Notes: generated by a model not told the origin, from the letters alone. A stretch of DNA of 64,000 nt from Euglena gracilis (GCA_039621445.1 CP154954.1:47223847-47287846); one strand, 5' to 3'; counted from the first letter of the stretch, positions 9,722 to 49,994 are shown. Program-made: numbers and translations.

Positions 9722-9753
<32 letters not shown>

Positions 9754-9802
9754 ACAACACACCCGCACAACCCACCCGCACACACACACACACACACACA
9801 CA

Positions 9803-9870
<68 letters not shown>

Positions 9871-10298: not shown

Positions 10299-10335
<37 letters not shown>

Positions 10336-13300
10336 GTGTTGTGTCGTTTTGTGTTGTGTTGTGTCGTGTTGTGTCGTGTTGTGTTGTGTATACATATGTG
10401 TGTCTCCAGTATGGCCCTCTGGTTTGGTAGCAGGACTTTCACCCTGACCAGAGGCAGAAGACGAGGAGGGCCAGCAGGGCGAGCCATGCGTAGGGGAAGG
10501 GGGGTTGCAGGCAGGCAGCGGAGATCCACAATTTGTCATTCACAAAGGGATGCAGGAAGGGGGGGGATGCTCTTGGTTGGGGTAGTCAGGGTGCGGGGGT
10601 GGAATTCAAACCTGGTGTGGACTCTCCGCAACTTTCCATGGTGCTCTGGCCACCATCTGCTGAGTTCTGCAGCAGGCAGAAACTCAATTCCACTGCCTTG
10701 CTGAATCACTGTGCCACTCAAGGCATCCCGGATCAGGAGTAAGCCGCCCACGGCACCTGTGGCAGGCGACATAAGCTGTAAAATTACAAAGTTGCAGCGC
10801 AAGAAGGGAACGTTGATGGTGTCCACCCTAAATGATTCCTTCTGTGGGAGAGGGTAGACCACAAGGTCATCAAAAATGCAATGAGCACCAAATAATATAC
10901 TATTTGGTAAAAATTGGGGGTAACCTTCATTATGAAGACCTCCAAGACAATGGGTAAACGCGGAGGTAGTTTGAATTGTCCACACCAGACAAGGACAAGG
11001 GGCACAAGCTGCCAAGTTGCGGGGAAAGCAGGAGGATGCAGTTCCAAAAAAAGTGTCCCCTCCTTGCGCCAATTGTCCCACCAGTGTGTCTCAAGAGGCT
11101 GTCATGCCCCGGGATCAGCGCTGTTGAACCACGGTGTGGGACGCAGGGGTGGGTCGGCGCCCACCTGAATCGTACTGCCCCTGTTTGAATGCGTCCCTCA
11201 TCCGGGCCACGATGACGGCCGCCACGTCGTCCAGCAGCGCGGCCTGAGCCCCGCCGGCGGTGCGCAGGTGTCAATACGGTGGGGCTCCCTATCCCCACCC
11301 TCCAATCCCGTATGCCAGCTGGCTCCCCCAAACACACGACACAACACACCACACACACAACACACACACACACACACACAGTGCGCACACAGCACACACC
11401 ACATAACACACACATGCTCAAAACAAGACACACACACACACACACAAACACCCACTCACACACACACACACACACACAAACACACAAAACAAGCCCCACG
11501 GTAGCCAAACAACGCGGTCGCTGGCGGACACCAGCAAAATGATGCCGTCATTGCAGGTACCGTGGCTGACGCCCCAGCGAGCCCCGACTACTGTGGCGAA
11601 CGCTTTGCCCTGGGCGATGCTGTCGACAGCGAAGGGTCGACCCAGCATTGAGGTGCGCCACACCAACCAATGCACCCCCCTTTGTCTAACCACCAGACAC
11701 CGTCCCAGCACACTGCTGTCCATCTCTTTGCGACCAAAAACCCTTCATTTTCATCAAAATCCACCTATGGTTGCAGCAACATTCTGTTTTCGACTGGAAC
11801 GTCGCATTTCTTTTGCTGCTTTTGTTACGTGTCAGAGGAAAGGGTACTTCCGAGAAAGTTGTTTTTGAAAAGAATGCAATGGACGGGTGGTTGGTGCTGA
11901 GAAGAACACCAATGGTAGACAGGGCAGGGGTGCAGGACCCCCAAGCAGGGTTCAATTCAAGGGCATGTGGGTGGAAGCCAAGGGGGGTGGGGTGGAGAGG
12001 AACACCCCCAGGAACACCCCCCACCAAAATAGTGGCACACCAAAATGAAGTGTTTCTGTTTCTGACAGGGCGAAGCTACGAGCCAGAGGTCTATTTGGGG
12101 GGTGCCTGTCTGACTGCGCTCCCCTTCAAAATGTAGTCCATTTGCAAGGTACAAACTCAATTGGATGTTGGGGCTGGCAGGGGAAGAAAAACGACCCAAT
12201 AATTCCACTGTAATGGCACGTACTGCTGATAATACATTGTGATTTTTTTTGCCCCTTTCTCTTGGTGCAAGCCCAAAGCATCACTTCTTTTTGCAACACA
12301 ACAACTTGCTTTGGAATGATAATTTTTTGTTAATTTTTCATATTTTGGGCAATCAATTTTTATCGTTTTCTGCAAGCAATTTAATGTGCAGCAAAACTAT
12401 CATAGTTTTCCTCCAATGCGTTATTTGGTGTATCCTCCCCACCCAGCCTTGATGTGCTGGCCAGTGGATCTTCTCCTGTCCGAGAATTCCAGACCTTTGC
12501 TCCTCCAAAACGATTTGTGGGCATGCTCTTGCAATACCATAAAGGAATTTGCCGAGTATCAGAATTCAATATCAAATTACCTATTATCCCTGGGGGAAAA
12601 AAATGCATGCCAGACTCGACCCCAGCAAAGTGTAGGATGGAATTTTCTTTCAGCATTGATGAGCTCTTCAGGTGTATCCATCCAGAGGTCCTCATCAGGC
12701 TCGCCTCTGGGCGACACTCGGAGTGGTGTAGGTGACGTTGGCGTCCATCCTTTGCAGCACCGCCAGCCCTACCTGTAAAAGGATAAAAGCAAAGAACTGG
12801 TGCTTCCTCTGGCTCTGTTCTTATGCCAAAAAACTTCTTGGATGTCGCAGAACCGGTGGCAATTCAACTGGGGGTCACCCACCACTGACTTGTGGTCTGG
12901 GGGACAACTCACAACACCCTCACACCGTTGGTACCATAAATTTGCTGAGTGACCTCCTGGGGGACTTTTCCCTGGGTCCAAAGCCACCCCACCCACCCTT
13001 TTTTAAAAAACCCACCCACTCACCCCCTCCCCCCGACACCGACCCACCCACCCAAAACCTAGCCAAAAGTGGCCAAAAACCCTTGAAGAAAATTTCTGGC
13101 CCGGCCTTTGGCAGGGCCGGACCAACCCATGGCACACCCCGCCCCTGGGAGGAGGGGGCCCAGCAGCCAAACCCACCCACTGTCCACTGTCGAAAATCCA
13201 TCCACCCCCCAAGGGGTCACACAAGTGTTAAATGAATTTATGGTTGGGACCCTGCAAGTCAATCCAATCGGGTAGAAGCCAGGACCATACAATTTTTTAC

Positions 13301-15221
13301 CGACCCCCCCCGGGGGGGTCACTCCCTTTTCAAAAAAACCAGTCAGTCACTTTTTTGGGAAACCAGTCAGTCACTACCCCCCCCCCCGGGGGGGGGAGGT
13401 AGGCCACTCTGGAATCCAAAGGAATTCTGACCAAAAACATGAAAAAAGGCCAAAAAAAATTCCGGCACCTTTGGCGCCGGGTCAATTTAGTGGTTTTTTG
13501 CCGACCCCCCAGGGGTGGGGGGGAGAGGGTTCGGGCCAAAAACCAGTCAGTCACTCTGAAAAACCCAGTCACCCCCGGGGGGGGGGGGGTCTGGCAAAGT
13601 GATTGTATGGCCAGGACAGATTTCCGACCCACCCATGGACCAATTGGTACCGAAAGCTGGTCAGCACCTGATACCCGACGCGCTGTCCCTGGCAGTCGTG
13701 CTGGCACTGTATGGCGATGGCTTCGATCACTGCCTCACTCTGGTTGCGCGCCGCCTCGGAAAGAATGGCATCAGGGTCGGGGTGGAGGGGAATGCCACCA
13801 AGGATATGGGATTCATGGCGTGTTCATGACATACCTCCGCCATTCATCATGGTTTGGTTGACCATATTTCAGTGTGGTGATGGGCTGATAAAGAAATAAT
13901 AACATCATTTACCCAAATATTTTACCCCAAATATTACCGTGGTTTTGTAACTTAACTAACTTTCTAGATGGGGTTGGCAAAAGTGATCGCTTGAGGTTTG
14001 AGTCCAGCAATCCTCGTGACATCGAGATAAGACATGTGAGGGGCAAAACACAGGCATGTGATGCATTCTCTCCAGCGCAAACCAGTCCGGCCTGTGATAA
14101 TGAAGGACAAATGAAAACCAAAAGCCATCAAACAGGCACAGACAACATGGTCGTGTTTTTCATGTGCCAACAACAGAGGGGGGAGGAAACAGCAAGACTC
14201 CTTGACGTATGCAATGCAAAATTGCACAAAAGTGCAACGAAACTGCAAGCAGTAATTCGTGAAATTAGCAAGCATGTAAAATCCTTTTCAACCTCCTCAG
14301 GATGAAGACTTATCTCTGTTGGAGAGGACTTCAAAAATATCACCTCTGCTGGGGAAAGTTTTTCATGATGGACAATTTTTCATAAAATATAATATTTATT
14401 TTTCATTATGCACCAGAGAATATATATTGAAGAAACATTCACGCGGTTTTCAACAAAAAAAACCACAGAAGCACGAGCAAAATAACTCTTGTACCCCAAA
14501 AAATTCGAGCAAATCAAAAAAAAAACAGCAAAATGACAAAATAAAAAGTTGATTGCCCAAATGCACACACTTCAGCATCAAGCAGCTTGAAAATGGTCAA
14601 TATCTGAGTACGCCGCACACCGAGCCCTGGGGGGGGGTCCTGGGGGGTGCTGTGTGGTGCTGGGGGTCGTTGGGTCAATACAAAGAGCCCAGAAAGGGAC
14701 CCAAAAATAAAACTCTAACATATGATGATGTTATTTTTAAGTCTGGGGTCCAGGGGGTGGGAGCCCCCCCCCCCAGTGGTTGCCGAAGGAGCCTGGAAAT
14801 CCACAGTGAGTGAGCCTTGGGTCCTGGAGGGGGGAAACTGGGCATGACTCCTGGGTTCTTTGGTACAAGAGCAATTTCCGTGCACAATTGCCACACAAAA
14901 ATTGTGAAAATTGGGAGGTCAAAATATGCAAAAAAATGCACATTTTCCCCAAGATTTTCAGAATGCAAAAAATGCAGATCATACAACTTGCACATTCCCC
15001 CCCAGGAAAACAGCAACAGGACACCCCTCAAGAAAAATCGTGCTCTGATTCCACGATGAAAACCCTAACCAACACCTCGATGAACACATTGGGTTGAGGC
15101 ATCGCACCTGCCTCCTGCCACACTTCGCAACGTCCACCATAGGGTTGGGGAAATCCTCGGCCTTCCAGGTGGATGCGCGGCCGAGGAGGAAGACGACCAG
15201 GAGGATGGCAGCAAACGCCAT
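2234..15221 (-). CDS. Multi-exon gene: signal peptide + TPM (MOLO-1-like) domain + transmembrane segments + RING-H2 finger + Gly-rich C-terminus
   Basis: Phase-consistent exons in transcript order: 15221-15108 (MAFAAILLVV..WKAEDFPNPMVDVAKCGRRQ), 14626-14615 (GSVC), 13778-13668 (DPDAILS..GYQ), 12772-12713 (VGLAVLQRM..), 11624-11507 (..FATVVGARWGV..CNDGIILLVSASDRVV), 11269-11165 (YLRTAGGA..MRDAFKQGQYDSG), 10756-10700, 10506-10443 (TM), 10021-9873 (TM), 9540-9516, 8351-8336, 8090-~8035 (CSICLEEF), ~7694-7551, 7372-7328 (LGCGHRFHRQCI), 6663-6543 (EW..CPMCRE), 6306-~6260, ~5975-5826, less certain exons near 4490-4365, 3840-3640 and 3535-3457, and last exon 2277-2234 (GGLFTGGGGAGDSW*). Motifs match TPM/MOLO-1 and C3H2C3 RING consensus. 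Exons between 3500 and 6300 are approximate. Confidence 0.8.
2726..2916. repeat. Tandem repeat, ~6 x 31-33 bp (gtcagtcgatttccattcaggcgcccgtttat)
   Basis: Directly visible; copies are adjacent with no unique spacers. Confidence 0.9.
3017..3120. repeat. Perfect 43-bp inverted repeat with 18-nt loop
   Basis: Arms 3017-3059 and 3078-3120 are exact reverse complements; the loop is tgagcgagcgaagcgagc. Confidence 0.95.
4487..5360. mobile_element. Non-autonomous element(s) with gtcgctagcgac/gactagtc palindromic subterminal repeats
   Basis: Clusters of gtcgctagcgac at 4510-4615 and 5328-5352, with inverted aagtccacc/ggtggactt segments. No TSD established. Confidence 0.45.
9630..9870. repeat. (CA)n microsatellite in TPM-RING intron (related tracts at 10275-10400 and 11330-11490)
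   Basis: Directly visible. Confidence 0.95.
11270..11506 (-). other. Nonconventional intron in TPM-RING gene
   Basis: T|GGCTACCGTGGGGCT...AGCCCCACCGTATTGAC|A, with 11 of 12 pairs from +4 in the +n/-(n+2) register. Removal gives DRVVYLRTAG. An in-frame TGA excludes the nearby AG acceptors. Confidence 0.75.
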
Positions 15222-15253
15222 CGGTCGTGATGCCAGTAGGCACACAAATATAT

Positions 15254-16022: not shown

Positions 16023-16289
16023 CAGGCTTCTTTTTAAGACCCCCGGGGGGGAGGGGGGGGTCCCCCCCGGCGCGGGACCCCCCCCCCCCGGGGGGGGGGG
16101 GCCGGGACCCCCCCCCAAAAATCGGGCCCGCTAAAGGCGATTTCCAAAAATTTTCGGCGCGAATTAGCACAAAAAGTATGGGATTAGCACAAAAAGTAAG
16201 AAGTTGTGGGTGGGGGGTCCGGCCCGGACCCACCCACCCACCCCCCCTCCCCCCGGGGGGGGGGGTCTGCTGACTTAAAAAGAAGCCTG
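16023..16289. mobile_element. hAT-type MITE
   Basis: TIR caggcttctttttaag/cttaaaaagaagcctg; 8-bp TSD GTGCTGGG. Confidence 0.9.
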
Positions 16290-16891: not shown

Positions 16892-19800
16892 TCATGTGGC
16901 AGCAGCCAGCCGGTCCACCGTGGCCTGCAGGATTCGTTTCTGCAGCACGCGGAATCGCACACACGTCCGCACGTTGGGCGACAGCTGCGGGTCCTCCAGC
17001 AGCGCGAGGTCCTCGGCGACGGTGGTGGGGTAGGCGGCGAGCAGCTGCCGGCAGCGGGCCAGGACGACCGCCTCGGGGAAGCCCCGGCTGTGGTCCAGGC
17101 TGTGGAGGGCCCGGGTGCTGGCATGGCGCCGCCTGCAACCCGGCCCGGCAATCCGGCCCGGCAACCCGGCCCGGCAAGCCGGCCCGGCAACCCGGCCCGG
17201 CAACCCGGCCCGGCAACCCGGCCCGCCCAAAGAAAAGGGACCTCTGCCCTCCCGGAACTCCCAGCCCATCCCCAGTGATGCGGCCTGGAGGCATCCGCCA
17301 GGGGGCACCTGGAAGTTGAAAGGGGGGGGGCTCTCCAAAGAGGCGATGGGCATCCTGAAAATGCATTTGGTTGCTGCTGAGAGATGTTGCATGAGTATCG
17401 ACTTTTGTGCGAGCTGCTGACAAACGAAGGTGGTATGAACCATTTTGACTCCCAGAAACCACCCCTCCCAAATGCAGCCCCACCCACCCCTGGGTCTTTC
17501 ATTCTGGCTGCGAGATGTAGACTCCCAAGAAAATGCCGACGGGTGAAGCTTGGAAGTCGGAAGGCATCAGACGCGAAAATTCTCATTTTGCTTCGCTGGT
17601 TACTAAAACTTTCTGTGAAGAAAACAACCTTCAGTGATTGAAAGCTCACTATGAAAAGTTGCATGAGAAATAATGATGATAATAATAATAATAATGCCTT
17701 TTGGATTGCAGAAATGAAAATGGAAATGGGAAAAAAATAGAAATGAAGAATGGAAAATTTGCTTGAAAACGTATCCATAGTGAATCTGAGACCCAGAAAA
17801 ATGTCCGATTGTTCTGCAAAACGAAAGAATGGCATATTTTTAGAGGAGAGAATTTGTGTCTCTCTTTTGGAACTGTCAAAGATAATTTACTGGAACTGAA
17901 CCCGCCCATCAGGTGTCGCTTTTTTGCCTTTCCACGGTTTTGCCCACAACAAGATTGATCTGAACTGGAAATAAATGCTGGTCATGAGGGAAATATAAAA
18001 AACATTAGGTTGAAAGAAGCTGGAATGCAATTCCAAATGCTGCGCTTAAAAATTTCCTGGGAAATAATCTATCTGCAAGTCCCAAAAGACGCAAGACAGG
18101 CGTCCGGGGGAGGTAACAAGGAAAATAATGATGCCAAGTCAAAGTGGTGACCTCTGATTTTGCTTCCTGTCGCATTTGCACATACTGTCAAGCAAGGAAC
18201 GAATGGCTGCCTGAAACCTCAAGAGGCACCATGGATGAGGCGCCCATCCACCATTGAGGCTGCAACAAATAACCGGCAAGGCTCTGAGTCAAAGCCAATC
18301 CTGACTTGATCTGGGTCTTGTGTAAATAAAAAGGCGCACACTCACGCACTACCTCGGGCCTGCACGAGTGTCCGAGTGAACTGCTCCAAAGCTAAAAATT
18401 TTGGTTGGCTTTGGTGGGGAAAAAAAACGGAGTGGGGGGGGGGGGGGTGGGGGGGTAGACAGGGGTAACTTCCCTCTGAGTGATCCCTGTCTGGAACCCC
18501 AGGGGTTTTTGTGACAAACTTGTCGCTTCCACGTCAAGGGTCAGACTCAGAGCCTCTGCTTGTTCAAGCTCGGGCTACAAACGGCAGAAATGCCCCCCAG
18601 GCTGTACTTGGAGGTGTTGGAGTTGTGTTGGAGTTGTACTTGGAGGGTTGACTCTGGACAGGGGCTAAATTGTGCTTGAGCTTCCGCTGTAGGTCCTTGG
18701 CCGAGACCCAGCGCCACCTGTGAGTGGGTGGGTGATGGCACTGGGGATGGGGCAAGCCAGAGGTTGAGAAAGCGAGGCACAACGGGCTTCAAGCCAAAAG
18801 GCCAAAAGGCTGATGAAGGAAAGGCGGGCGATGGCGGGGTCATGGACCTGCTGGCCAAGAATGTGGAGCAGAACTCGGCAAGGTCCCGGACCCGCTCGAA
18901 CACGACCACGTTATCGTACGGGTTGTGGTCCAACACAAATCCGTAGGAGAGGTAGAGTACCCGGTTGGGAAACTTGCCATATTGGACAGTGACCTCCTGG
19001 CTGCAGGGCACCCATCATGACTACGCAAAAGCTAACATGGATATTGCATGAATGTGCATATTATTCTAAAGAAAAATATATACATACATTCATATTCAAA
19101 GTAAACACTTATATGGGAGGGTGACATTTGCCCCCCAAGGTCCTGGGCTAATTGAAAGAATGGGGTTGGGGTCGCTTAGCTCTTGTCTCTTCAGAGGAAG
19201 AGCGAAGCTGGCCACTGGGGAAAAAGGGGGGGGGTAGAACACCCCTACCTGACTCATCTACCGAGGGGCTGGGGGGGGTAGAACCCCCCCCCCTGGTAGG
19301 TGATGAAAACTGCAGATCATCATCAAGACCCCAGTCCCGTCCCCTGGACTGTTTCCGGATCACCTCCATTTGAACCAAACTCCCTGCCAGGCCCAAGCCA
19401 TTCACCCGTGAAGGGGTCCAAACTGGGTAGGATTCACCAAATCCGACTCTGTCATTTCGCAGGGGTGAGATTCGGTCAAAGAATCGATTTTTCGAAAATA
19501 TCTCGAGAAAACGTACATTATCTAATATTATTATTATTATTATCGTGTCGGCAAGACGAAATGTGCCCCTGGAGGCCCTCTATCGCTCCCCATTCGCCAT
19601 TTTGGCCGCCGACACGCCTGGCCTGTGTTCCAACGCGCTTTTTGGCAAAACAGCCATTTTGGGGTGATTTTTGGGCCGTTATTTTTTTGGTAAAAAAACC
19701 CTGATTTTTTCAAATTCAATTTTCTCGACAATGAAGCAAAATCAAAGGAAATGTTTAGAGACCAAAAATGAAGCCCTTTGAATAGCCTATCCAACCATGC

Positions 19801-20665
19801 TTCAGGTTTCTCCCAATTCTTCGTGTAGCTTGAGCTGCGGCCATTATTTTGGCTAATTTCTGCCCATTTCATTTTTGGACTCTTTTTGGGGACAAAAAAA
19901 TCGCTGTTTCCATTATATCTCGGAAATGAAGCAAAATAAAAGAAAATGTCCAGAGACTGAAATTGAAGCCCTTTGAACGCCCTATCTAATGGTATATTGG
20001 TTTCCCTGTAACTCCCCGCAAAGCCCGAGATATAGCCGATTTTAAGGCCCAAAAAAAGCTTTTGTTTTTGACATTTCGGGCCAAAAAAAGGAAACAATCA
20101 AAATTTTTGCTCAAATCGATGTCTCTTGGCCTCCCGGACCCAGAAAACCTGTTTTCGAGCCGAAAATGAGCGTTTTTTGACCCCTCATCCTGTTTTCGGC
20201 CCAAAACCCATGGCCCGGGGGGGGGGGGGCCAGCCGGCGGCCCGGGCCGGGGAAGCCCAAAGAGACGGCTTTGGGTAATTTTTTCCGATTTTTTCGACAT
20301 TTTTGACCTGGAAATGACCCCAAATGCAAACCAAGGGCTGGGCCGGGCCGGGTCGGGTCCCCCTGGCTGCCACAAGCCTCAAACATGTAAAGAGCTCAGC
20401 ACTACACAAAACCTGGTTAGGCGTAACGTTAAGCATAACTCCTTTGCCCTAACTAAAATAGATGCATGCATGCATGCATGGGAAAAAACCAACAAATGAC
20501 ACCAGAAAGTGTCGAAATACAATGTGTTCTGTTTGTTTTCACCAAATGGAGTGCTCTGCTAGGCCCCTTTGTACACCCGCGCTCCCGGTCACCAACTGGA
20601 CGGCAGGCTTGTCTGAGGAATCGAATTTCAAGACAGCGTTGGCGGCGAAACTGTGGTTGGCAAAT
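16892..20665 (-). CDS. SET-domain lysine methyltransferase, Rubisco LSMT/SETD3-like (3' part only; N-terminal exons not found)
   Basis: Exons: ~20665-20562 (FANHSFAANAVLKFD..VQRG; SET NH motif), 18998-18848 (QEVTVQYGKFPNRVLYLSYGFVLDHNPYD), 18717-~18653, probable small exons ~18391-18353 and ~18259-18229 (VDGRLIH), and 17132-16892 (LLAAYPTTVAEDLALL..FRVLQKRILQ*, LSMT substrate-binding signature). Confidence 0.8.
17136..17225. repeat. 13-bp tandem repeat (caacccggcccgg) x ~7
   Basis: Directly visible, next to the acceptor of the last SET exon. Confidence 0.9.
18999..20561 (-). other. Nonconventional intron in SET gene
   Basis: C|TAGCAGAGCAC...GTGCCCTGCAGCC|A, with CAG at +4..6, CTG at -8..-6 and paired ends. 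Removal gives VQRGQEVTVQYG. Confidence 0.85.
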
Positions 20666-21694: not shown

Positions 21695-22631
21695 TAAACG
21701 AAAAAATACATATTCTCGAGGGTGATGGTATAAAACCCCCAAAAATACCAAAAAAATCCTAAAAATCACAGGAATTGTTTCCCCCTTATTCTGGGGGCAT
21801 CTCTGCCCAAAAAAAACTCTGTCTGTCCAAAAAAAAATCAAAATTACTCACTCCCCAAAATGGGACAATGAGAAAACAACTCAAATACTTCAAACCCGGG
21901 TTCTTCTTAAGGACTGCTGGGGGGGGATGGAAAAAGGTTATGGTTGGAAAAAAGGTGCTGGCTGGACCTTCTCTGGGGGTGGGTTTGGGGGGGGGGGGGC
22001 AGCCAGTTGGCAGCTGGACATGCCTGGGACCCGAAAACAGGCAAAAAAAATCCAAATCCAGCTTGGCCGGATTTTAGCCAAAATTCTGAGGCAAGAACCC
22101 AAAACCCCTCAAAAATACCATCCTTGACCCCCCTTTTCAAAAATTTAGTGTTTTGTGCCGAAACTTCCAGCGCTGCTCCGCCAGGCTGGTAACAACTTTC
22201 AGTGGACCCCAGGGTGGATCCACAGCCTGGCTGGGAGCTGCTGGATGGGTAAAACATTGCTGGCTGGCTGGATCCCCCTCTCCTGGATCGCCCCCCTCCG
22301 GTTGTATCCCCCTCTCCTGGATCGCCCCTGCTTCGGACACAGACCGAGACAAAAACGTTTGACAGAAGAGAAGAAATAATAGAATTTCGAGAAGAGCAGG
22401 AAGTTATACAGGGAGATGGCAAAAGAGAGGGAGAAGCGCACATTCTGCAAAATTAAAAAAACACAAAAAGTAATTAATTATCTCTGATGACCTTTAGCCA
22501 GCCATGCTCAGAAATAAAGGTGTCCAAGACATTGGATTTCAGGTATTTGCAAGGGATAAAAACAAAATCCTTGCCAAAGATCTGTCAAGTGCAATGCCGA
22601 AGTGGCTTTGTTCCAACTGGCTTGCTCACAG

Positions 22632-29876: not shown

Positions 29877-29916
<40 letters not shown>

Positions 29917-41900: not shown

Positions 41901-44900
41901 TGTTTTTTTTTGAGCTTTGCCAGTTTCACAAACAAGCGTACCAGAAACACTTTAGAGGACCGAAAGGATCACCACCTGACGGGATGCGACGCAACTGCTG
42001 GCTGGCTCCTTCTCCTCTGATGGAAAGGTGGCTCCGGAACAATTGACAGAAATTTTTTTTTGGTGTGAGGAGAGTTTCTCGTGGATCCCCCCTGATGGGT
42101 TGCTTCCCTAGCTTCGCAATTGTGCAGCCCGGCAACCTGTGCCCCGACTGCCTTCCGGTCGATGTGGGCTGAGTTCGAGTGGGAGAACAAGGTGGTGGTG
42201 AACACCGACATCAAGTCTTTGCGGGAATTCCTGGACCACATCATGCAGAACACAAATATGCGGTTTGCATGATGCTCTGCCCCAGGCCGTCCCAACGTGG
42301 GGGAATTTTTTCGTGTTTTGCACATTTTTAGTGCATTTTCCCCGCATTTTTTTTGCACATTTTTTGATTTTTTTCCGGCGCATTTTTGGGGCATTTTTTT
42401 GTGATTCCAGTTTTTCGCATTTTTTTTCCACCATTTTTGCAAATTCTTACCTCTGATTTTTGAAACTGATATTTTCCTCTTGATTCCATACAATTCTTGT
42501 AAATTTGGTACCCCTTTCGCATATTTTTTTGGGCATTTTTTTCCTATTTGTGATTTTTGCGCCTTTTCTCTCAAACTTTCGCATCCCCCCCCAACAATGC
42601 TCCTTTTTTGCTCATTTTTTTGTGCCTTTTTTCAAGGCCGGAGTAGCGCATTCCCCCCTGTCAACCTGAAGGGGATTCCATCCCAGTCCAGTCCAGCCAG
42701 CATCCTTTTCCCGCCAGCAGCCTTCTTCCAGCAGCCAAAGGGCGGCTGGACGGCAACAATTTTTCCGCTTTTGGAGGTGCAAAAAAATATGGGGCAAAAA
42801 TGGGCAAAGAATGGGAAAAGGGCTGTCCCGCTCAAATTTTGGGTCAAAGAATCAATGTGTTGCCCAATTTGCAGCTTTTTTTTGAAATCATTTCTGCAGT
42901 TTCAAGTTCCTGTTACCCGGTTCGACTCTGTGTCAAGCTAACTTCAGCTGGTGGAGTGGGGTGGTCAGCCAGCAACCATTTTTCCAGCCGACACTATACT
43001 CCAACTCTGAGGTGCCCCCTTGTCAGCTCTGCCAGAGGTGATATCAGGGGTTGGAGGAAAATGCAAGTTGCATAATTTGCATTTTTTGTGCAATCCTAAC
43101 TCCTGAAAACTTGATTTTTTTGCATAATTTGCTTTTTTGTGTATAATGAAAAAATTTGTGAAAAGTCGCATTTTTTTGCATTTTTTTTGCATATTTTGCC
43201 TTTGCGTTTTTTTGGGGGCATTTGTGCAGCACCTCAAGTTGCATGTAAATTTCTTTAGGAGCTCCCAGGGCTGTACGCTTTTCTGCTGGAGAGGACTTAG
43301 AAGAAATTCAACTGCCCCAAAATGCAACACCAAAGGAAAATGTGGTGCAAACTTGCAAAATGATGTGCTTGGTTCACCAAGTTGCATCCACTTATATTTA
43401 ATTGAACAACTACTGCTGGAAATGTGAAATTGGTCCAAAAACATTTTTTTTTGCATTTTTTTTGCATTGCATTTTTTGAGGAGCCTTGTGTCACATTCCC
43501 CCCTTGTGATGTACAAACATATGGGCATGAAAAATTAAAAAAAATCACGTGGAGAATGTGGAATACGCAGTTTTGGTTATTTTACATCTTCAAGTATTGT
43601 GTGTATTTTATTTTCCACCGTGTTCTATATTTCTATCGTCTTTTTTATATTTTTTTTTTGGATTTTGCATATTATTTTCTCAAATTGCAGCCCCCAAATG
43701 GACTCTGTTGTTTGAGTCCTCCAGATCCCGGTGCTCATTCGGCCCTTGCTCCAGGTTTCCCATCATTGTTACCTTCCATCCTGCTGGACCCTTGGAATCG
43801 CTTTGGGCAGTGACAATGGGTTTGATGGAATTGTGGTTGCGCATGTGGATGTTTTTTTGTTTCCTCCCCCCTCCCTCCCCGATATGGAGTAAGTTCAATG
43901 CTTTGGGCTCAGGGCTGCATGGAAATCCCCAAATTGGGATTTCTGGGATTTTTGGGGGGGGTCGACTCCCCACCCCAATCCTGGTGGGTGGGGTCTGACG
44001 CCCCCCCCCCCCCACCAGGCTTTCTTGTGTTTTCTGGGGCACTGCTTTTTAGGCAGGAAATTGGACCTTGCTTGGGGACACAACAATAATCCAGAACAGG
44101 ATGTCCCAGAACAGGTCCCCCAGCTGGAACTTGGCCCGACCTGGGGTTGATCTGGGTACCAAAAAATCGAAACTCCAAAAAATGCCCAAAAACTGCCAAT
44201 TATGCAAAACATTTTTTGACCCAAAATTTGAGCTGGCCCAAATCTGACCCTTTTTTGGCCATTTTTGGCCCATTTTTGCACCTCCAAAAGCGAAAAATCT
44301 GTCACTGTCCAGGTGCCCTTCGGGCGGCTGCAAAGTAATTAAAACTTGTCTATGGGGGTCCGAGGCTGGAAAAGGCTGCTGGCTGCCCTCCCCCGGGGGG
44401 GGGGGGGAGGGGTTCATTTTGACTTAAGCGGCGACCTGACACAGCCCCCCAAAGCCCAGGCAGGGCTGCACAGGAAGGCCTGTACGGCATGTGCGGGAAG
44501 GCAGGGGTGGGGTCGACCCCCACCCAGGGCAGAACGGGAATCGGCCAAACAGCCAGGGTGGTGGGTGGGGGCTGACCACCCCCCCACCTCTTCCCGTTGT
44601 TCTGGTGGCACCATTTTTTTGGACCCCCAAATTTTTTCCCGCGCCTTCGGCGCCGGGCGTATTTTTGACGCATATAGGAGGTCCCCCCCAAAACCCCCCA
44701 AAACCCCATTTTCAAACCCCGTTTTTTTCACACACCTTCCAAAAATTCAACATTTCCTCAAGATTTTGATTTTGAGGTTTTCGAAGCAAAAATTGCTATT
44801 GAAAATCCAAAAAAGCCAAGGGAAAAAATTTCAGTTAAATTTGATTGTGCCAAATTTGGTCCAAATTTTTTGATTTCTTTTTTTTTCACCCCCCTCCTAA

Positions 44901-47900
44901 AGATTACCAATTTTCAAACCTGAAAATTTTGAGGTTTGTTTTGTGTTTTTTTTGTGTAATTTTCTATCAAAAAATCATGTATTTTGGGATCATTTTTCAA
45001 AAAAAATTTCAAAAATTCCCCCGGCAATCCCCCAATTTCCCAAAATTGGTGAAAATGCTGTGGTGGGTGGGGGGGGGTGGATCCCCCCAGGCCTTCCCGT
45101 TCTGCCCTGCCCCCACCTCATCCACCACAGCACCCCGCAAGGAAAAATTCCTTCAATGCCGAAGGAAAATTTTGGCCTGTTTCTTGTTGTGGTTTCTGGT
45201 TGATTCGCTGCTGGGGTGGGGTAACAGTCTGGCTGCCACAAGGGGCTCCCCGCCTCCTTTTCTGTGCAGGTCTCTCACGTCAGACAACTTCATCCAAGGA
45301 GATTGCGATTTCCTGTCGGCCAACCTCTACGCAAAGAGCTCTTTTGGGGAAGATGCCCTGGCCAATGTCAGGTGGGACCTTTTTGCCACACCCTCTGTGC
45401 CTTACCTTCCGTGTCCCCCCTCCAAGTATGGAACCCCAATGGTGGGAGGGCACCGAACCCAATCATTTTTGATGTGGATGAAAGTGTGTTGTTCGTGGAC
45501 TGCAAGACTGTATGTGGGTTCAGGCTGGCAGGTGGGACATTGCCAGGGGAAGACGACCCTGCCACAGTGCCATCCCTCATCCTTGATTGCTGTGGCACAG
45601 ACCGTTAAACAGTGCTGTGCAACCCTCTGGGTTTGAGGTGGGGGTAGGGGTTGTCCCCCCCCTCCCCCCGGGGTAAGGTGGCAGGGGGGTTCGGATTCCC
45701 CCCCTAGATGTTGGGAGGGAGCCTAGATCCCCACCCCCCGTCCTCGGCAGGTTCCAAAAATAGCAAAAATTTTCTTCCGGTGCTGCGCCGGAAAATGAGC
45801 AAAAAAAATGCCCCGTTTCCCTCATTTTAGAGCATATTGCACATGTTTTGTTGTTTTTGATGTTTCCACAAAAAAATTCTCAGTCGCAAGCGACTGGATC
45901 CCCAACCCCCCGCCCGGCCAGATTTATTCAACTGACAAGGGTTGGATCACTGGAGGATTAGCCACCCCCCCAGTTACGACTCTGCCATTTTGCGGGGTGA
46001 GATTTTTGGTCAAAAGAATTGATTTTTCAAAAATCTCGAGAAAATGTCCATTATGTCCAAAAGTGTCCGCCAAACGAAATGTACCCCCCGGAGACCGGCT
46101 AGCTAGTGGAAATTTTTTTTTCCAGTGACCGGCGCGAAGCGCCGAAAATTTTTTTTGCGACCCCCAAAAATGGCCAAAAATGCCCGTTTTTGGCCATTTT
46201 TGGGAATTTTTGGAACAAAATCAGCCAAAAACCAGTTAAAAACCTCGGGTCTACTAGAAAACCCACTGGCCAAATTTGGACTAGCTGCAGTCGAGCTCCC
46301 CCCCCCCCCGGGGGTACTGCAATCCCTTAAGCAAAAGCCTGCCCCAGGGAAAATTGGTTCTACGTTTCTCCACACTGAAGGGGGGGGGCACTGGCCTTCC
46401 TTGAAGGGTGCTGGCTGCAGGTGCCCCAAAATTGTATCTGGGCATTTTTGTGTCCCCACATTGCCTTGTTTGGGTCTCATTTTCCAGCCCCCCCCCCCCC
46501 CGGCAGGGATAGATGGGAAGCCTTGAGGGGGGGGGGTCAGACTCCCTCCCAACACGGGGGCGGTCGGATCAGGCTATGTATGGAGCTGAGCTCTTTACCT
46601 CTCTGATGGTGAAAAGCAACCTGGCCCGGCCCGGCCCGGCCGGCGGCCCAGCCCAGCCTGGCCCAGCAGGCAGCCTGGTGGCCCAGCCAGCGGCCCAGCG
46701 GCCCGGCCCAACCCGGCCGGTGGCCTGGCGCCTGGCCCTGCCCAGCTGGCAGCCCGGCGGCCCGGCCAGGCCCGGCGGCACGGAACGGGCGCGTAGCTGG
46801 CCCTGGAGTTATATGCGGGGTGATAGAGGGTCCTCAAAGATTTATTTAAGGTCTCCAGTTGTTTCTTTCTATATACCTCATCATTTTGGAGAAATTCTGA
46901 AGTTTTCGATTTTTTGATCCCAAAATGGCCCTAAAATCGTCAAAACGGCTGTATTTGTGACCTTGGGGGCCAAAACAGGGTTTTAGAGGGCCGCTGAGGC
47001 ATTATTTTAGGTCCCCAGTGGTTTCCTTTTGATTGGCCACCATTTTGGAAATATTTTGAAGTTTCGATTTTTTGACCCAGATGTGCGGAGCAAAACGCCC
47101 TTAAATTGACAATCACTTATGAAGAAATAAAAATGCGTAAAATAAAATAAAATACATAAATGACCATTAGATAGGGCGTTTCAAGAGCTTTATTTTAGGT
47201 CTCCAGACATTTCCTTTGATTTTGCTTCATTTCCGAGATATTTTGGAAACATCGTTTTTTGGACCTCAAAACAGCCCCAGAAATGGGCCAAAATGGGTCG
47301 AAAAATGGCCATAACTCGGGCCACACAAAGAAGTTGGGGGGAAAAAGTAACCCATGGTCGGATTGGGCATTCCAAGGGCTTCATTTTTGGTCTCCAGGAA
47401 ATTCCTTTGATTTTTGCTTCATTGTCCAGATATCTTGAAAAAATCGATTCTTCGACCAAAAAAACAGGGCAGGGCTGTTTTGGGCCGCAAAAGTGCGCCG
47501 GAACACAGTGTCGGCGGCCAAAACGGCGAATGGGGGGCTTTTTTACCCACTTGTACAACTTTGGCCGCTCTTGGCCACTTTTGGCCACTTTTGGCTACTT
47601 TGCCCAAATTCACTCACCTTTGGCCGCAAGCTCCCCTGATTTATTTGGCCAATCCAGCATCTGCATCCACCGCTAACCCATTTTTCCTCCGGCGCTGTGC
47701 GCCGGAGGAAAATTTTTTTTCCAGGACCCCCGGACCCCCCCCCCCCCCGGGGGGAGGCGGGGGTCTAGTTAGTCCACTTTTTCCAGTGTCTAGCCGATTG
47801 GCTAGCCAGTACCCCCCCCCCCCCCCCCGGGGGTCCTTAAGCAAAAGCCTGCCCCGGGGGCAGAGGGGTCCACTGAACAATGAAAGCCTGTTGGGGCCAG

Positions 47901-49297
47901 GGCATCATTGAATAAGAGTCCTGGAAACGACCCCATCGTGGTGGATGGGAATCTACCCCCTCTTCCCAGCTTGCAAAGGCGCTGATTTTTTCGGCCAGAA
48001 TTCTCTTTGCAAAAATGCCATTCGGTGGGTATCCCCAGGGTTTTTCACCGGTTCGTGCCACGAACAATCACGAACAATCACGAACCAGCACGAACTTGGG
48101 ACTTTGGCAAAATCACGAACAATCACGAACAATCACGAACAATCACGAACAATCACCAACCGGACTTTTTTTGTCACCCTTGCAGTAATGTCTTCTTCTG
48201 AGAACTTGGTGTCAGTTTGAAGAATGTCATTGCGTTTGTGTCTGACTCAGTAGCTGTGTTAAAGAAAGCTTATGAAGTAGTCCTCCACTGTGTCGAAAGC
48301 ACAATTCTGTGTTCTTTGGACTTGGGGGGGGGGCAATGGAATTTCGACCTCTGGGAACCGTCTTGTGTGTCGTCATGGAGATTTGTCCTCCATTTTTGTA
48401 TTTGCCATATTGTCAGCAAGATGTTTATTGGGGGTAGACAATTGCATGGTCTTGTCACCTCTGCCGGTGTGGAACGGCCGTTCAGCCTCGCCGGTTTCGT
48501 CGATGCCAAGAATCGTCAAAATATGGGGAAAACCAAAATTTAGCTCATGGTGGTTGCCAAAACAGCTGATTTTTCTTTGCTTTGCAGTGCATCTTTCAAA
48601 CCTCATTTGCTTTGCCCATTTACCTGAATATTTAGCTTAAAAGAGGCACAAGAAGCCAAAGTACAAGAGGAATCACCTATTTCGCCAAGGAAAACAGAAA
48701 ACCGGGCGGTTTTTTGGAAGCACGAACAATCACGAACAATCACGAACAATCACGAACAATCACGAACAATCACGAACCGTATTTCAGGCTTCCTAGCACG
48801 AACCGGTGGTAAACCCTGGTATCCCCATTTCTCCTCGGGGGGGGGGGGGGGCAAAAAGGTGCTGGGGACGAAGCAAAAAGCTGGGGAAAAAAGCAAACAA
48901 AAAAAGTGTGTTGTCCGATTAGGAAGGTCTCCATAGGACACAGAGAAATTGCAGAAATTTCTCTCTCTCTCTCTCTCTCTCTCATTGTCCCTCCCCCATC
49001 TGTCTGTGTGCATTTGTGTCGTTGCGTGCATGTGTGTGCATGTGTGTGCTTGCATCATCAGACAAATGGACACAGCAAACTGTGCCAGTTACCCAGTTTG
49101 TGTTCAGATTGCAAAAGTTGTTTGGCCTTGCCACTGCCTTGGATTTGTTGGCGAGGTGTATTTCCTCTCTTCTTCTCTGCCTCAGCATCGAACGCCACCC
49201 TGATGGACGCATCGAAGGGTTGGTGCGCATCCGGTCCAAGACCCAGGGGATTGCCTTGGGCCTTGGGGACAAGATCACTTTGAAGCAGCGAGGCTGA
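22632..49297 (+). CDS. COPB1: Coatomer subunit beta (beta-COP), C-terminal ~half; N-terminal ~400 aa not found in window
   Basis: Phase-consistent exons: 22632-22744, 24868-24969 ([11 protein letters not shown]), 25711-25776, 27128-27205, 27400-27491 (DGTYVT), 30668-30782 ([15 protein letters not shown]), 31403-31537 (IDNDSHERI), 35855-35996, 37354-~37398/37418, ~38012/38020-38075, 38207-38313 ([15 protein letters not shown]), 40371-40508 ([10 protein letters not shown]), 41162-41264 ([20 protein letters not shown]), 42128-42262 ([14 protein letters not shown]), 45270-45371 ([23 protein letters not shown]), 49186-49297 ([22 protein letters not shown]). These are diagnostic beta-COP motifs. 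Confidence 0.95.
24174..24251. repeat. (TATAC)n microsatellite
   Basis: Directly visible. Confidence 0.95.
27599..28066. mobile_element. hAT-type MITE nested in another MITE
   Basis: TIR cagggaatttcttaag/cttaagaaattccctg; 8-bp TSD CCCCCCAC. A related copy lies at ~25968-26722. Confidence 0.9.
31627..32218. mobile_element. hAT-type MITE (cagggcagaacgg family)
   Basis: TIR cagggcagaacggga/tcccgttctgccctg; 8-bp TSD CCCGGGGG. Confidence 0.9.
32258..32514. mobile_element. hAT-type MITE
   Basis: TIR caggcttctgct/agcacaagcctg; TSD ACCGGGAC/AACGGGAC (7/8). A partial copy lies near 24733-24830. Confidence 0.8.
32760..33011. mobile_element. hAT-type MITE
   Basis: TIR caggggttttttt/aaaaaaacccctg; 8-bp TSD CCCCGGGG. 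Same family as 49317-49994. Confidence 0.9.
38314..40370 (+). other. Nonconventional (non GT-AG) euglenid-type intron in COPB1
   Basis: Junctions C|ACCCAAGGCA...TGCCTTGGGATC|A. There is a 9-bp perfect terminal inverted repeat, and +4..6 CAA pairs with -8..-6 TTG. Removal gives [14 protein letters not shown], collinear with beta-COP. Confidence 0.85.
41359..41752. mobile_element. hAT-type MITE (ctagc-rich family)
   Basis: 17-bp TIR caggcttttgcttaagg/ccttaagcaaaagcctg; 8-bp TSD AAACAGAC. Partial copies near 1000-1419, 37620-37970, 46090-46341 and 47690-47851. Confidence 0.95.
44525..45109. mobile_element. hAT-type MITE (cagggcagaacgg family)
   Basis: Same TIR as 31627-32218; 8-bp TSD CCCCCACC. 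Confidence 0.9.
48036..48818 (+). mobile_element. Internally deleted hAT transposon with transposase C-terminal remnant
   Basis: TIR cagggtttttcaccggttcgtg/cacgaaccggtggtaaaccctg, subterminal (cacgaacaat)n arrays and a flanking direct repeat GTATCCC. ~48450-48530 encodes [24 protein letters not shown], the hAT dimerisation motif. Confidence 0.8.
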
Positions 49298-49316
49298 TCA
49301 GGTTTCTCACCCCTGC

Positions 49317-49994
49317 CAGGGGTTTTTTTAGTCGTGGACCCCCGGGGGGGGGGAGGGGGGGTAACCCCCCCCCCTAATAAGTGCGCAGTGCCCTAATTGT
49401 GTGCAGTGCCCTAATAAGTGCGCACCCCCCAAGGGTCCGAAACTACCTCCCTAAAAAGTGCGCACCCCCCCAAAGGAGAAATCATTGTCATATCTCAGGT
49501 CGGAAAGCACGCACAATTCTCAGAACTGTCCTTCTCAGACCAAACATTTCTATTGTCCAATCCCAAGTTTGACACATTTGACACATAATCACTTGACTCA
49601 TAGCTTGAAATCACAAAATTGGGGGAAAATTGAAAAAGAGTGGGGGAAATGTCAGTATTTTTGGCTTTGCCCTAAAAAGTGCGCACTGCCCCAATAAGTG
49701 CGCACCCCTTGGGGTCCGAAACTACGTCCTTAAAATGCGCGCACCCGTGCACTTATTGGGGGGGGTTAGGGTGGCTGGGTCCGGCCGAGCCCCCCCCCCC
49801 CCTGGGGGGTCCCCCCGGAGGGGGGTGGGATATACTTTTCGGCGCCAAAGGCGCCGAAAAAGTGCTATTTTTAGCACTTTTCGCGATTTTTCGGCCATTT
49901 TTTTTTTGTGGGTCCCCCAGGACCCCCCCCCCCCGGCCGGGGGGGCCAGGGGGTGGGTGGGTGGGGGGTCCCCCCGGTCTTAAAAAAACCCCTG
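49317..49994. mobile_element. hAT MITE 20 bp after the COPB1 stop, with a nested TA-flanked MITE (49364-49766)
   Basis: Outer TIR caggggttttttta with TSD ACCCCTGC. Inner TIR acccc..aataagtgc/gcacttattgggg..t with TA duplication. An empty-site homolog lies at 32760-33011. Confidence 0.9.

What the first reader, a model, noticed from the sequence alone, without database searches (positions are those of the whole stretch)
11625..49994. hAT-MITE 'introner' arithmetic: nonconventional intron offsets (3 + 5 nt) equal the 8-bp hAT TSD
Seen: eight MITEs here (16023, 27599, 31627, 32258, 32760, 41359, 44525, 49317) start CAGG, end CCTG and have 8-bp TSDs (one is 7/8), and a hAT transposase remnant is at ~48450. 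Seen: the nonconventional introns pair +4..6 with -8..-6 (CAG/CTG at 18999-20561). Inference: in abcdefgh-CAG...CTG-abcdefgh, cutting 3 nt before CAG and 5 nt after CTG removes the element plus exactly one TSD and restores the exon seamlessly. Such a MITE in an exon would therefore be a ready-made nonconventional intron. The predicted TSD relic (last 5 exon + first 3 intron nt vs last 5 intron + first 3 exon nt) matches 6/8 at 11625-12712, 5/8 at 10507-10699 and 4/8 at 18999-20561, but only 2-3/8 at the others, so support is partial. A MITE origin for these introns has been suggested in general terms; I cannot verify whether this exact geometry is published.
Basis: partly seen in the sequence, partly recalled or inferred. 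Interest (0 to 1): 0.85.

Follow-up and report, generated by a model that had tools for sequence, protein, structure and literature searches.

The report
hAT MITEs beside Euglena nonconventional introns
This stretch of Euglena nuclear DNA carries many small hAT-type jumping elements whose ends and 8-base target duplications fit the 3+5-base rule by which Euglena cuts out its unusual introns, but none of the unusual introns here shows any trace of having been such an element.

Summary
The MITEs are real. All 8 listed elements, plus 3 more, start CAGG, end CCTG and carry 8-bp target-site duplications (10 hits; 0 in 30 shuffles). The 3+5=8 arithmetic is correct. It matches the published Euglena code 5'-N3CDG..CH'GN5-6|R (PMC12501133) and the published E. 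gracilis consensus CCAGG at +3..+7 and CCTG at -9..-6 (PMC11170887).

I mapped 12 nonconventional (NC) introns: 2 by RNA reads, 9 by near-identical transcript-derived proteins, 1 by reading frame. All 12 have a stem starting at +4/-6 and a purine at the next exon's first base.

The in-window support for a MITE origin fails:
- Over the 12 introns the predicted 8-mers match at 30 of 96 positions, against 2.59 of 8 per intron in mismatched pairs (permutation p 0.66).
- No NC intron is a MITE copy.
- All 9 elements inside the coatomer gene lie in conventional GT-AG introns.

The hAT transposase remnant is only a weak lead.

A MITE origin with TSD-like repeats is already published in general terms. 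Eight literature searches found no link to hAT or an 8-bp TSD. The idea stays plausible, untested and readily testable genome-wide.

The parts
16023..16289 (.). MITE, 267 bp, TIR CAGGCTTCTTTTTAAG 16/16, TSD GTGCTGGG 8/8. Intergenic, 802 bp upstream of the TPM-RING start codon.
27599..28066 (.). MITE, 468 bp, TIR 16/16, TSD CCCCCCAC 8/8. Inside coatomer GT-AG intron 27492-30667.
31627..32218 (.). MITE, 592 bp, TIR CAGGGCAGAACGGGAA 16/16, TSD CCCGGGGG 8/8. Same family as 44525. Inside GT-AG intron 31538-35854.
32258..32514 (.). MITE, 257 bp, TIR 13/16, TSD ACCGGGAC/AACGGGAC 7/8. Same GT-AG intron.
32760..33011 (.). MITE, 252 bp, TSD CCCCGGGG 8/8. A short relative of 49317-49994 (86% identity over 236 nt). 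Same GT-AG intron.
33192..34470 (.). Non-autonomous element, 1279 bp, TIR CAGGGCGGTCC.. 15/16, TSD GTCAGTTC 8/8. Same GT-AG intron.
34734..35213 (.). MITE, 480 bp, TIR CAGGGATGTGTGGG 15/16, TSD CCCAGGTG/CCCAAGTG 7/8. Same GT-AG intron.
41359..41752 (.). MITE, 394 bp, TIR CAGGCTTTTGCTTAAG 16/16, TSD AAACAGAC 8/8. Inside GT-AG intron 41265-42127. The RNA fold has a terminal stem from CAG to CTG.
44525..45109 (.). MITE, 585 bp, TIR 16/16, TSD CCCCCACC 8/8. Inside GT-AG intron 42263-45269. 41 DNA-run contigs diverge just before 44524.
48036..48818 (.). Non-autonomous element, 783 bp, CAGGGTTTTTCACC..CCCTG ends (14/16), subterminal CACGAACAAT repeats, flanks GGTATCCC/GTATCCCC. Inside GT-AG intron 45372-49185.
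48202..48540 (+). ORF P0005 inside that element. Possible remnant of a hAT C-terminal dimerisation region.
   Evidence: Lead only. No hit.
49317..49994 (.). MITE, 678 bp, TSD ACCCCTGC 8/8. Starts 20 nt after the coatomer stop codon (49295-49297).
18999..20561 (-). NC intron of the SET / Rubisco-LSMT-like gene, canonical TAG-CAG..CTG-CAGCC|A. Relic 4/8.
   Evidence: Frame continuity only, no RNA.
11625..12724 (-). NC intron of the TPM-RING gene, 1100 nt. Relic 1/8.
11270..11506 (-). NC intron, GGC-TACCGTGGGG..CCCCACCGTA-TTGAC|A. Relic 2/8.
10507..10702 (-). NC intron, 196 nt, with 5 protein-equivalent placements (10504-10703). The placement given is the N3/N5 register. Relic 4/8.
10261..10449 (-). 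NC intron, canonical GGT-CAGGGT..ACCCTG-CCACC|G. The interior is mostly a CA-rich microsatellite. Relic 5/8, the best in the window.
10004..10238 (-). NC intron, GGC-CAGGGA..CCGTG-GCAAC|A. Relic 2/8.
8097..8262 (-). NC intron, GGC-CAC..GTA(TG)-CTTTG|G. Relic 2/8.
7750..8036 (-). NC intron. Relic 3/8.
6664..7327 (-). NC intron. Relic 2/8.
2282..3453 (-). NC intron, canonical AAG-CAGGAT..ATTCTG-GCGCT|G. Relic 1/8.
37397..38015 (+). NC intron of the coatomer beta gene, seen as RNA joint 37395|38015. GAG-TGCCGCAA..TTGCGGCA-GCAGC|A. Holds a degenerate copy of the 41359 family at 37620-37988. Relic 2/8.
38314..40370 (+). NC intron of the coatomer beta gene, seen as RNA joint 38312|40370. ACC-CAAGGCA..TGCCTTG-GGATC|A. 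Relic 2/8.
22625..49297 (+). Coatomer beta gene, codons 398-945 only. 15 introns: 13 GT-AG and 2 NC.
2237..15221 (-). TPM-domain + RING-finger gene (P0010, 528 aa). 4 GT-AG introns, 9 NC introns, 4 unresolved.

Best explanation
The window is Euglena nuclear DNA. Its transcript-derived relatives are labelled by their sources eukprot GGOE01019192.1.p1 and EG_transcript_7233.

Shown: it holds at least 11 non-autonomous elements of hAT type, with CAGG..CCTG inverted ends, 8-bp target-site duplications and very high copy number. They are lodged in GT-AG introns and in intergenic or 3'-flanking DNA.

Shown: it also holds 12 NC introns. All obey one geometry: 3 unpaired nt, a stem that starts at +4 and closes at -6, 5 unpaired nt, then a purine.

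Inferred: the NC excision machinery measures 3 and 5 nt outward from the terminal stem. A hAT-type insertion in an exon would therefore be removed from the RNA together with exactly one TSD copy, which restores the exon. On this view the canonical CAGG..CCTG class of NC introns arose from such insertions, and older introns kept the pairing but lost the end sequence, the TSD identity and the interior homology.

Not shown here: that any intron in this window began as a MITE.
For: The elements:
- They are far above chance: 10 hits against 0 in 30 shuffles.
- All 11 of 11 start CAGG and end CCTG.
- DNA-run word depth over MITE bins is 10^4-10^5, against about 100-300 in unique bins. The tool warns that this is not a copy number.

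The geometry:
- 12 of 12 NC introns have >=7 of 10 positions paired from +4/-6. In the 16 GT-AG controls, 0-2 of the first 3 positions pair.
- The next exon starts with a purine in 12 of 12.
- Both RNA-verified NC joints are seen in 3 RNA data sets and in 0 contigs of the DNA run X20.

Published work:
- The spacers are 3 and 5 nt; a 1-bp change on the 5' side abolishes splicing, and +1 on the 3' side is tolerated (PMC12501133).
- The E. gracilis consensus is CCAGG at +3..+7 and CCTG at -9..-6 (PMC11170887).
- NC introns are frequently gained at new positions, and a MITE origin has been proposed (PMC3935182).
- CAG/CTG have been read as TIRs with TSD-like junction repeats (PMC11282704).

The fit:
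- The MITE RNA fold has a terminal stem exactly from CAG to CTG, with z = -9.3.
- Four of 12 NC introns here begin their stem with CAG, three of them CAGG.
Against: - The predicted 8-mers match at 30/96 positions. Mismatched 5'/3' pairs give 2.59 per intron against 2.5 observed. Permutation p is 0.66, and shifts of -10..+10 give 24-32.
- The only per-position excess is at -1 (7/12). The shared pyrimidine|purine cut-site preference explains it.
- 0 of 12 NC introns has ends that coincide with a copy of any of the 11 element families.
- 8 of 12 NC stems do not start with CAG.
- All 9 elements inside the coatomer gene lie in GT-AG introns.
- No joint across the MITE just 3' of the coatomer stop codon was among the 15 joints shown (1685 were not shown). 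RNA depth falls to about 0.24 beyond 49944.
- In intron 10507-10702 the visible CAG..CTG pair spans exactly the intron length of 196 nt, so the spacer sum there is 0, not 8.
- Published direct repeats are abundant at conventional introns too.
- The hAT assignment rests on TSD length and the end motif. No transposase homology reached significance.
Confidence: 0.45

Rival explanations
1. Coincidence of numbers. The 3/5-nt geometry is a property of the excision enzyme, a ruler measuring from any terminal stem with a pyrimidine|purine cut preference. It has nothing to do with hAT. The MITEs share CAG ends because hAT ends usually look like that, and they are ordinary intronic passengers.
For: - There is no TSD relic: 30/96 against about 31/96 in controls.
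- 8 of 12 stems do not begin with CAG, yet all 12 keep the +4/-6 register.
- A pyrimidine precedes 11/12 of the 5' cuts and 11/12 of the 3' cuts, and a purine follows 10/12 and 12/12.
- Every genic MITE sits in a GT-AG intron.
- Published direct repeats also flank conventional introns.
Against: - The published genome-wide consensus CCAGG/CCTG, at exactly +4 and -6, equals the element ends.
- The spacer sum equals the TSD length of the very superfamily that has those ends.
- NC introns are gained at new sites, which needs a mobile source.
Confidence: 0.35
2. Host filter rather than origin. The NC system predates these elements. hAT-type MITEs with CAG..CTG ends and 8-bp TSDs have multiplied in this genome because insertions into transcribed DNA are neutralised by that system. 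Some NC introns would then be MITE-derived, but the geometry was not shaped by them.
For: - The elements are very abundant and sit within genes (depths; 9 elements in one gene).
- NC stems are highly diverse.
- PMC12501133 suggests in its discussion that the machinery mitigates insertions.
Against: - It does not explain why a pre-existing geometry should sum to 8.
- This window shows no exonic MITE being spliced.
Confidence: 0.15
3. The elements belong to another superfamily with 8-bp TSDs (for example P, Merlin or a Mutator-like group), so the hAT label is wrong although the arithmetic still holds.
For: No significant transposase homology was found in the window.
Against: - The ends are CAGGG.., which I recall as the hAT consensus YARNG.
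- The TSD is exactly 8 bp in 10 of 11 elements.
- The language-model lead points to hAT dimerisation clusters.
Confidence: 0.05

Closest known systems
Euglenid nonconventional introns and their splicing code 5'-N3CDG..CH'GN5-6|R (Nomura et al. 2025, PMC12501133; Milanowski et al. 2014, PMC3935182; Gao et al. 2024, PMC11170887)
   Same: All 12 NC introns mapped here show the stem from +4/-6, the 3 and 5 nt spacers and a purine at the next exon's first base. Four have CAG at +4..+6.
   Different: Of these three papers, only the 2025 one was term-searched for hAT, TSD or duplication; its main text has none of them. The 2014 paper has no 'duplication' and states that no transposable elements had yet been identified in euglenids (hAT and TSD were not among its search terms). 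The 2024 paper has no MITE, direct-repeat or duplication term (hAT and TSD not searched there). Here, intact elements with the matching ends and an 8-bp TSD are seen beside the introns.
MITE / TSD reading of euglenid NC introns in the review 'Transposon-derived introns...' (Mob DNA 2024, PMC11282704)
   Same: It reads CAG/CTG at +4-6 and -8..-6 as TIRs and the junction repeats as TSD-like, and it proposes a MITE origin (passages read).
   Different: The word hAT does not occur in its main text (0 occurrences), and no TSD length for the euglenid introns or statement that 3+5 equals a TSD length appears in the seven passages I read. I could not see its Fig. 3D. The figure may display the same geometry implicitly.
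Introner elements of Micromonas and Aureococcus (Huff, Zilberman & Roy 2016, cited; not read)
   Same: A DNA transposon with TIRs and a TSD becomes an intron because one cut site falls in the TSD, so splicing removes the element plus one TSD copy.
   Different: Those are spliceosomal, with a 3-nt TSD in Micromonas, and they form large families of near-identical introns. Here the removal is nonconventional and no intron family homologous to the MITEs was found (0 of 12).
hAT-superfamily MITEs and Ds-type elements acting as introns (Mar in Drosophila, PMC3517528, search listing only; Giroux et al. 1994, seen only in the reference list)
   Same: 8-bp TSD, short TIRs starting CAGG/CAGGG, non-coding, multi-copy.
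   Different: No autonomous partner or significant transposase homology was found in this window. The TIRs share an inner CTTAAG at positions 11-16 in several families.

Membership tests
hAT-superfamily non-autonomous element (MITE) | 8-bp target-site duplication | tested here: met
   8/8 in 8 elements, 7/8 in 2, and a 7-mer offset by 1 nt in 1. 0 such hits in 30 shuffles.
hAT-superfamily non-autonomous element (MITE) | Short terminal inverted repeats with the end motif YARNG (motif recalled, not from a call) | tested here: met
   11 of 11 start CAGG. The TIRs match 13-16 of 16.
hAT-superfamily non-autonomous element (MITE) | Multi-copy, small, non-coding | tested here: met
   252-1279 bp. Family copies and fragments occur within the window. 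DNA-run depth is 10^4-10^5 over MITE bins against about 10^2 elsewhere (not a copy number). No Pfam family was found in their ORFs.
hAT-superfamily non-autonomous element (MITE) | Relationship to a hAT transposase (BED / RNase-H-like / hAT dimerisation domain) | tested here: inconclusive
   ORF 48202-48540 has no hit in Pfam, PDB or the representative library. There is only a sub-threshold language-model lead (0.76-0.79) to hAT dimerisation clusters.
Euglenid nonconventional intron | No placement with GT/GC-AG borders | tested here: met
   None of the 2-5 equivalent placements of the 12 introns gives GT..AG. One RNA joint is reported as CG..AG.
Euglenid nonconventional intron | Stem pairing +4..+6 with -8..-6, with 3 and 5 nt spacers and a purine at the next exon's first base | tested here: met
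   12 of 12 have >=2 of the first 3 positions paired, >=7 of 10 positions paired, and a purine at exon +1. The 16 GT-AG controls have 0-2 of 3 paired. For the 10 not verified by RNA, the register was chosen among equivalent placements by the pairing itself.
Euglenid nonconventional intron | Removal at the RNA level | tested here: met
   Two introns (37397-38015 and 38314-40370) are seen as joints in X1, X21 (45 and 64 reads) and X24 (16 and 11 reads), and in 0 contigs of the DNA run X20. Nine more are absent from the near-identical transcript-derived protein P0010. One rests on frame only.
Introner (intron family derived from a transposable element) | Intron interior homologous to a multi-copy element, with coinciding ends | tested here: not met
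   0 of 12. The only overlap is a roughly 70%-identical copy of the 41359 family nested 223 nt inside intron 37397-38015.
Introner (intron family derived from a transposable element) | Target-site duplication straddling the two junctions | tested here: not met
   30/96 matches at the predicted 5+3 split, against 2.59 per intron in mismatched pairs. p = 0.66. Power is low, with 12 probably old introns.

The most novel reading that the evidence does not exclude
Euglenid nonconventional splicing is the RNA-level counterpart of precise hAT excision. The machinery reads the element's terminal inverted repeat as a stem and cuts 3 and 5 nt outside it, which is exactly one 8-bp hAT target-site duplication. 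Every hAT-MITE insertion into an exon (with pyrimidine|purine at TSD positions 5|6) is then an instant, seamless intron. On this reading the hundreds of thousands of NC introns in Euglena are a non-spliceosomal 'introner' system seeded by one transposon superfamily. The identical pyrimidine|purine consensus at both junctions arises because both cuts fall at the same TSD position.
Probability: 0.4. Interest if true: 0.85.

Novelty: new variant of a known kind. Interest (0 to 1): 0.55.

Why it matters
The origin and the odd 3/5-nt asymmetry of euglenid nonconventional introns are open questions. These introns make up 71.8% of introns in E. agilis (PMC12501133 abstract), and the removal machinery is unknown.

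Tying the geometry to the 8-bp TSD of hAT elements would:
- name the transposon superfamily that seeded them;
- explain why the spacers are 3 and 5 nt;
- explain why both junctions share one consensus;
- predict which insertions are tolerated.

It can be tested at once with existing genomes, RNA-seq data and the published knock-in assay. This window supplies the first half of the argument: intact elements with the right ends and TSD, in a genome full of such introns. It does not supply the second half: an intron that is visibly such an element.

Tried and rejected
- Whole genome: none is held for this window, so the genome-wide test could not be run.
- Sequencing runs: no RNA holder was listed by the index. 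I laid raw RNA runs instead.
- Read laying covered only 30601-50600 (one call allowed). No joint across MITE 49317-49994 was among the 15 shown (1685 were not shown).
- SET-gene transcript protein: no hit. Only one of its introns was placed, by frame.
- hAT remnant: Pfam on 149 + 24 + 2 ORFs or pieces, PDB sequences and the 1.84-billion-protein library gave nothing significant. The library's 4 hits were all bacterial Ig-like repeat proteins, judged spurious.
- Metagenome scan with the 17-nt end of MITE 41359: 71 loci, each with a single match, and 0 of 71 with MITE body homology beyond the seed. These are chance matches, so no extra copies were gained.
- Earlier findings of this scan: nothing by place, words or sequence.
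- Paper reading closed. The supplementary junction tables of PMC4770533 and PMC3935182 and the docx of PMC11170887 were not seen. They may hold junction lists that bear directly on the 8-mer test. The PNAS SI appendix is a PDF and unreadable here. Its Fig. 1B (sliding-distance distribution) could not be seen either.
- Four TPM-RING inter-exon intervals could not be resolved at protein level (aa 19-62, 327-374, 432-477 and 477-508; best matches 39/44, 41/48, 23/46 and 19/32). They were dropped before the counts. One coatomer GT-AG intron (35996-37352) was left out of the 16 controls.
- Structure prediction, fold search and complex prediction were not used, because no claim here depends on them.
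Full report
**What the window is.** The window is 64 kb at about 50% G+C with no N. Pfam on 149 open frames found only cellular genes: a Rubisco-LSMT substrate-binding domain on the minus strand at 16.9-17.6 kb, coatomer beta domains on the plus strand at 38.0, 45.3 and 49.2 kb, and a weak RING match at 7-8 kb.

A word-based protein search returned a 945-aa coatomer beta, labelled by its source eukprot GGOE01019192.1.p1 (P0001). A second search returned a 528-aa TPM-domain + RING protein labelled eukprot EG_transcript_7233 (P0010). Both match the window at 93-100% identity within exons. The DNA is therefore nuclear DNA of a Euglena species. Reading the labels as Euglena transcriptomes is my recollection.

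P0001 codons 398-945 map to plus strand 22625-49294. Codons 1-397 are not in the window. P0010 maps to minus strand 15221-2237 in 18 exon blocks.

**The MITEs.** A scan for CAG..CTG pairs 60-4000 bp apart found 53 pairs with at least 12 of 14 terminal bases inverted-complementary. Ten of these have flanking 8-mers matching at 7/8 or better. Thirty first-order shuffles gave a mean of 11.9 such pairs and none with a TSD.

An eleventh element, 48036-48818, has the same ends, subterminal 10-bp repeats, and flanks sharing a 7-mer offset by one base. All 11 start CAGG and end CCTG. The TSD is exactly 8/8 in eight of them.

Family copies and fragments recur in the window. In the DNA-like run X20 the summed word depth over MITE-bearing bins is 10^4-10^5, against about 10^2 in unique bins. 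At 44524, 41 contigs diverge, which marks an element boundary. The tool warns that this depth is not a copy number. These are genuine, recently mobile, very abundant non-autonomous DNA elements.

An 8-bp TSD with CAGGG ends is what I recall as the hAT signature. No transposase homology reached significance. Its only support is a sub-threshold language-model lead to hAT dimerisation clusters.

**Where the MITEs sit.** I laid one RNA-contig run, one DNA-contig run and two raw RNA runs on 30601-50600. Ten spliced joints of the coatomer gene appeared. Each was seen in X1, in X21 (45-130 reads) and in X24 (8-23 reads), and in no X20 contig. Eight are GT..AG and two are not.

Protein mapping of the upstream part adds five more introns with a GT..AG placement. 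That makes 13 GT-AG and 2 NC introns in this gene.

Nine of the eleven elements lie inside five of the GT-AG introns. One lies 20 nt past the stop codon and one is intergenic. Beyond 49944 RNA depth drops to about 0.24. No joint across the 3'-flanking MITE was among the 15 shown (1685 were not shown), so that natural test of 'MITE as intron' was uninformative.

**The nonconventional introns.** The two RNA-defined NC introns are 37397-38015 and 38314-40370, each placed within the 1-2 nt ambiguity the tool reports. Mapping P0010 gave 4 GT-AG introns, 9 NC introns and 4 unresolved intervals in the TPM-RING gene.

All 12 NC introns share one geometry:
- at least 7 of the 10 positions from +4/-6 inward are paired;
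- the first base of the next exon is a purine in 12/12;
- the last exon base is a pyrimidine in 11/12.

Sixteen GT-AG introns used as controls pair at only 0-2 of the first three positions. For the ten introns without reads I chose among 2-5 protein-equivalent placements by the pairing itself, so the register is partly circular for those.

Four stems start with CAG. Three of these are CAGG, and two of those CAGG stems close with CCCTG. The fourth stem, CAGAGC, also closes with CCCTG.

This reproduces the published code: spacers of 3 and 5 nt, a strict 5' side, and +1 tolerated on the 3' side (PMC12501133; abstract and sections 5 and 8 read). It also matches the published E. gracilis consensus CCAGG at +3..+7 and CCTG at -9..-6 (PMC11170887, section 10 read).

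It is correct. Cutting 3 nt before CAG and 5 nt after CTG in TSD-CAG..CTG-TSD removes the element and one TSD. MITE 41359-41752, folded as RNA with its flanks, forms a terminal stem that begins at the C of CAG and ends at the G of CTG, and the TSDs stay unpaired (z = -9.3). It therefore presents the NC substrate shape.

The published requirement for a purine after the 3' cut corresponds to TSD position 6. The model also predicts that both cuts fall at the same TSD position (5|6). That would explain why both junctions share a pyrimidine|purine consensus (noted in PMC11282704; seen here). An enzyme preference explains the shared consensus equally well.

P0010 reads ..NVTYT|DSIAQ.., which puts the 5' end of the first intron at 12724/12725, not 12712. 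This placement matches 29 of 30 residues, and the relic becomes 1/8. The second intron is 196 nt, not 193, and in register its relic is 4/8. In that intron the visible CAG..CTG pair spans exactly the intron length, so there the spacer sum is 0 rather than 8.

Over all 12 NC introns the predicted 8-mers match at 30 of 96 positions. Pairing each 5' junction with other introns' 3' junctions gives 2.59 matches per intron, against 2.5 observed. The permutation p is 0.66. Sliding both windows by -10..+10 gives 24-32. The only position above background is -1 (7/12), which is the shared pyrimidine. The best single case is 10261-10449 (GGT-CAGGGT..ACCCTG-CCACC|G) at 5/8.

No NC intron's ends coincide with a copy of any element family. 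The one overlap is a roughly 70%-identical copy nested 223 nt inside 37397-38015.

The window therefore gives no positive evidence that its NC introns were MITEs. Twelve probably old introns have little power to show it either way.

**Literature.** I ran eight full-text searches.

The MITE origin was proposed in 2014 (PMC3935182, passages), which then stated that no transposable element had been identified in euglenids. The 2024 review calls CAG/CTG at +4-6 and -8..-6 TIRs and calls the junction repeats TSD-like (PMC11282704, passages). The 2025 PNAS paper repeats the MITE suggestion and says the origin is unclear. The words hAT, TSD and duplication are absent from its main text.

No paper combined Euglena or nonconventional introns with hAT or an 8-bp TSD:
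- One search returned 1 paper, which is about tunicates (title and abstract start seen only).
- One search returned 0 papers.
- One search returned 1 paper, on Merlin elements.
- One search returned only the PNAS paper, which I did not re-read after that search; by recollection its '8 bp' is a motif position and its 'target site' a genome-editing term.

Subscription papers, figures, PDFs and the supplements I could not open (paper reading closed) are not covered. The geometry may be implicit in Fig. 3D of the review.

**Verdict.** It fits published experiments and consensus motifs. The support claimed from this window dissolves under transcript-based junctions and controls.

I put the hAT-MITE origin of the canonical NC class at about 0.4-0.45, a numerical coincidence at about 0.35, and a host-filter scenario at about 0.15. 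The value of the finding is a sharp, cheap, genome-wide test of a long-standing question.

Noticed in passing
window 22625-49297 (+): The coatomer beta locus encodes only residues 398-945 of the 945-aa protein. The first 397 codons are nowhere in the window, and a minus-strand SET gene lies directly upstream. This could be a very long upstream intron, an assembly join or a partial gene copy. The locus is transcribed and spliced: the RNA contig carries about 510 nt upstream of 30666.
   Followed up: partly
window 57648-57956 and 58339-58646: A large inverted repeat. The arms total about 310 nt (196 + 115 nt pieces), are 99% complementary and are separated by 382 nt. There is no Pfam hit in the overlapping ORFs.
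   Followed up: partly
window 36955-36973 and 47812-47833: Hundreds of RNA reads join these two places on opposite strands or run off into long G or C homopolymers (535+617 reads in X21). These are G/C tracts of MITE-like repeats, so the cause is probably repeat-driven or a library artefact.
   Followed up: no
window 31627-35213: Five elements are packed into 3.6 kb of one GT-AG intron. Several TSDs are C/G runs (CCCGGGGG, CCCCGGGG, CCCCCCAC, CCCCCACC). This suggests a preference for, or nesting into, the G/C tracts that the elements themselves carry.
   Followed up: no
MITE ends, e.g. 16023, 27599, 33192, 41359: Different families share not only CAGG at positions 1-4 but also (C)TTAAG at positions 11-16 of the TIR. 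This hints at one transposase binding site across families.
   Followed up: no
window 33260|34445: An RNA-run contig joins 33260 to 34445, skipping 1184 nt inside the 1279-bp element. This suggests that a short deletion-derivative MITE of this element exists elsewhere in the genome and is transcribed.
   Followed up: no
window 9700-10400 and 11300-11480: CA-rich microsatellites fill the interiors of several short NC introns of the TPM-RING gene (for example 10261-10449 and 11270-11506).
   Followed up: no
window 40504: A C>T difference in a coatomer exon is seen in the DNA-run contig and in 16 of 22 RNA reads of X21. This is probably a strain or allele difference between the assembly and those runs.
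   Followed up: no
window 58821-62075 (+): Two long open frames (579 and 505 aa) have no credible Pfam family. They may be a large-exon gene or a degenerate mobile element.
   Followed up: no
window 10239-10260 (-): A 22-nt micro-exon lies between two NC introns of the TPM-RING gene. At least one further micro-exon (aa 39-43 of P0010) could not be located.
   Followed up: partly
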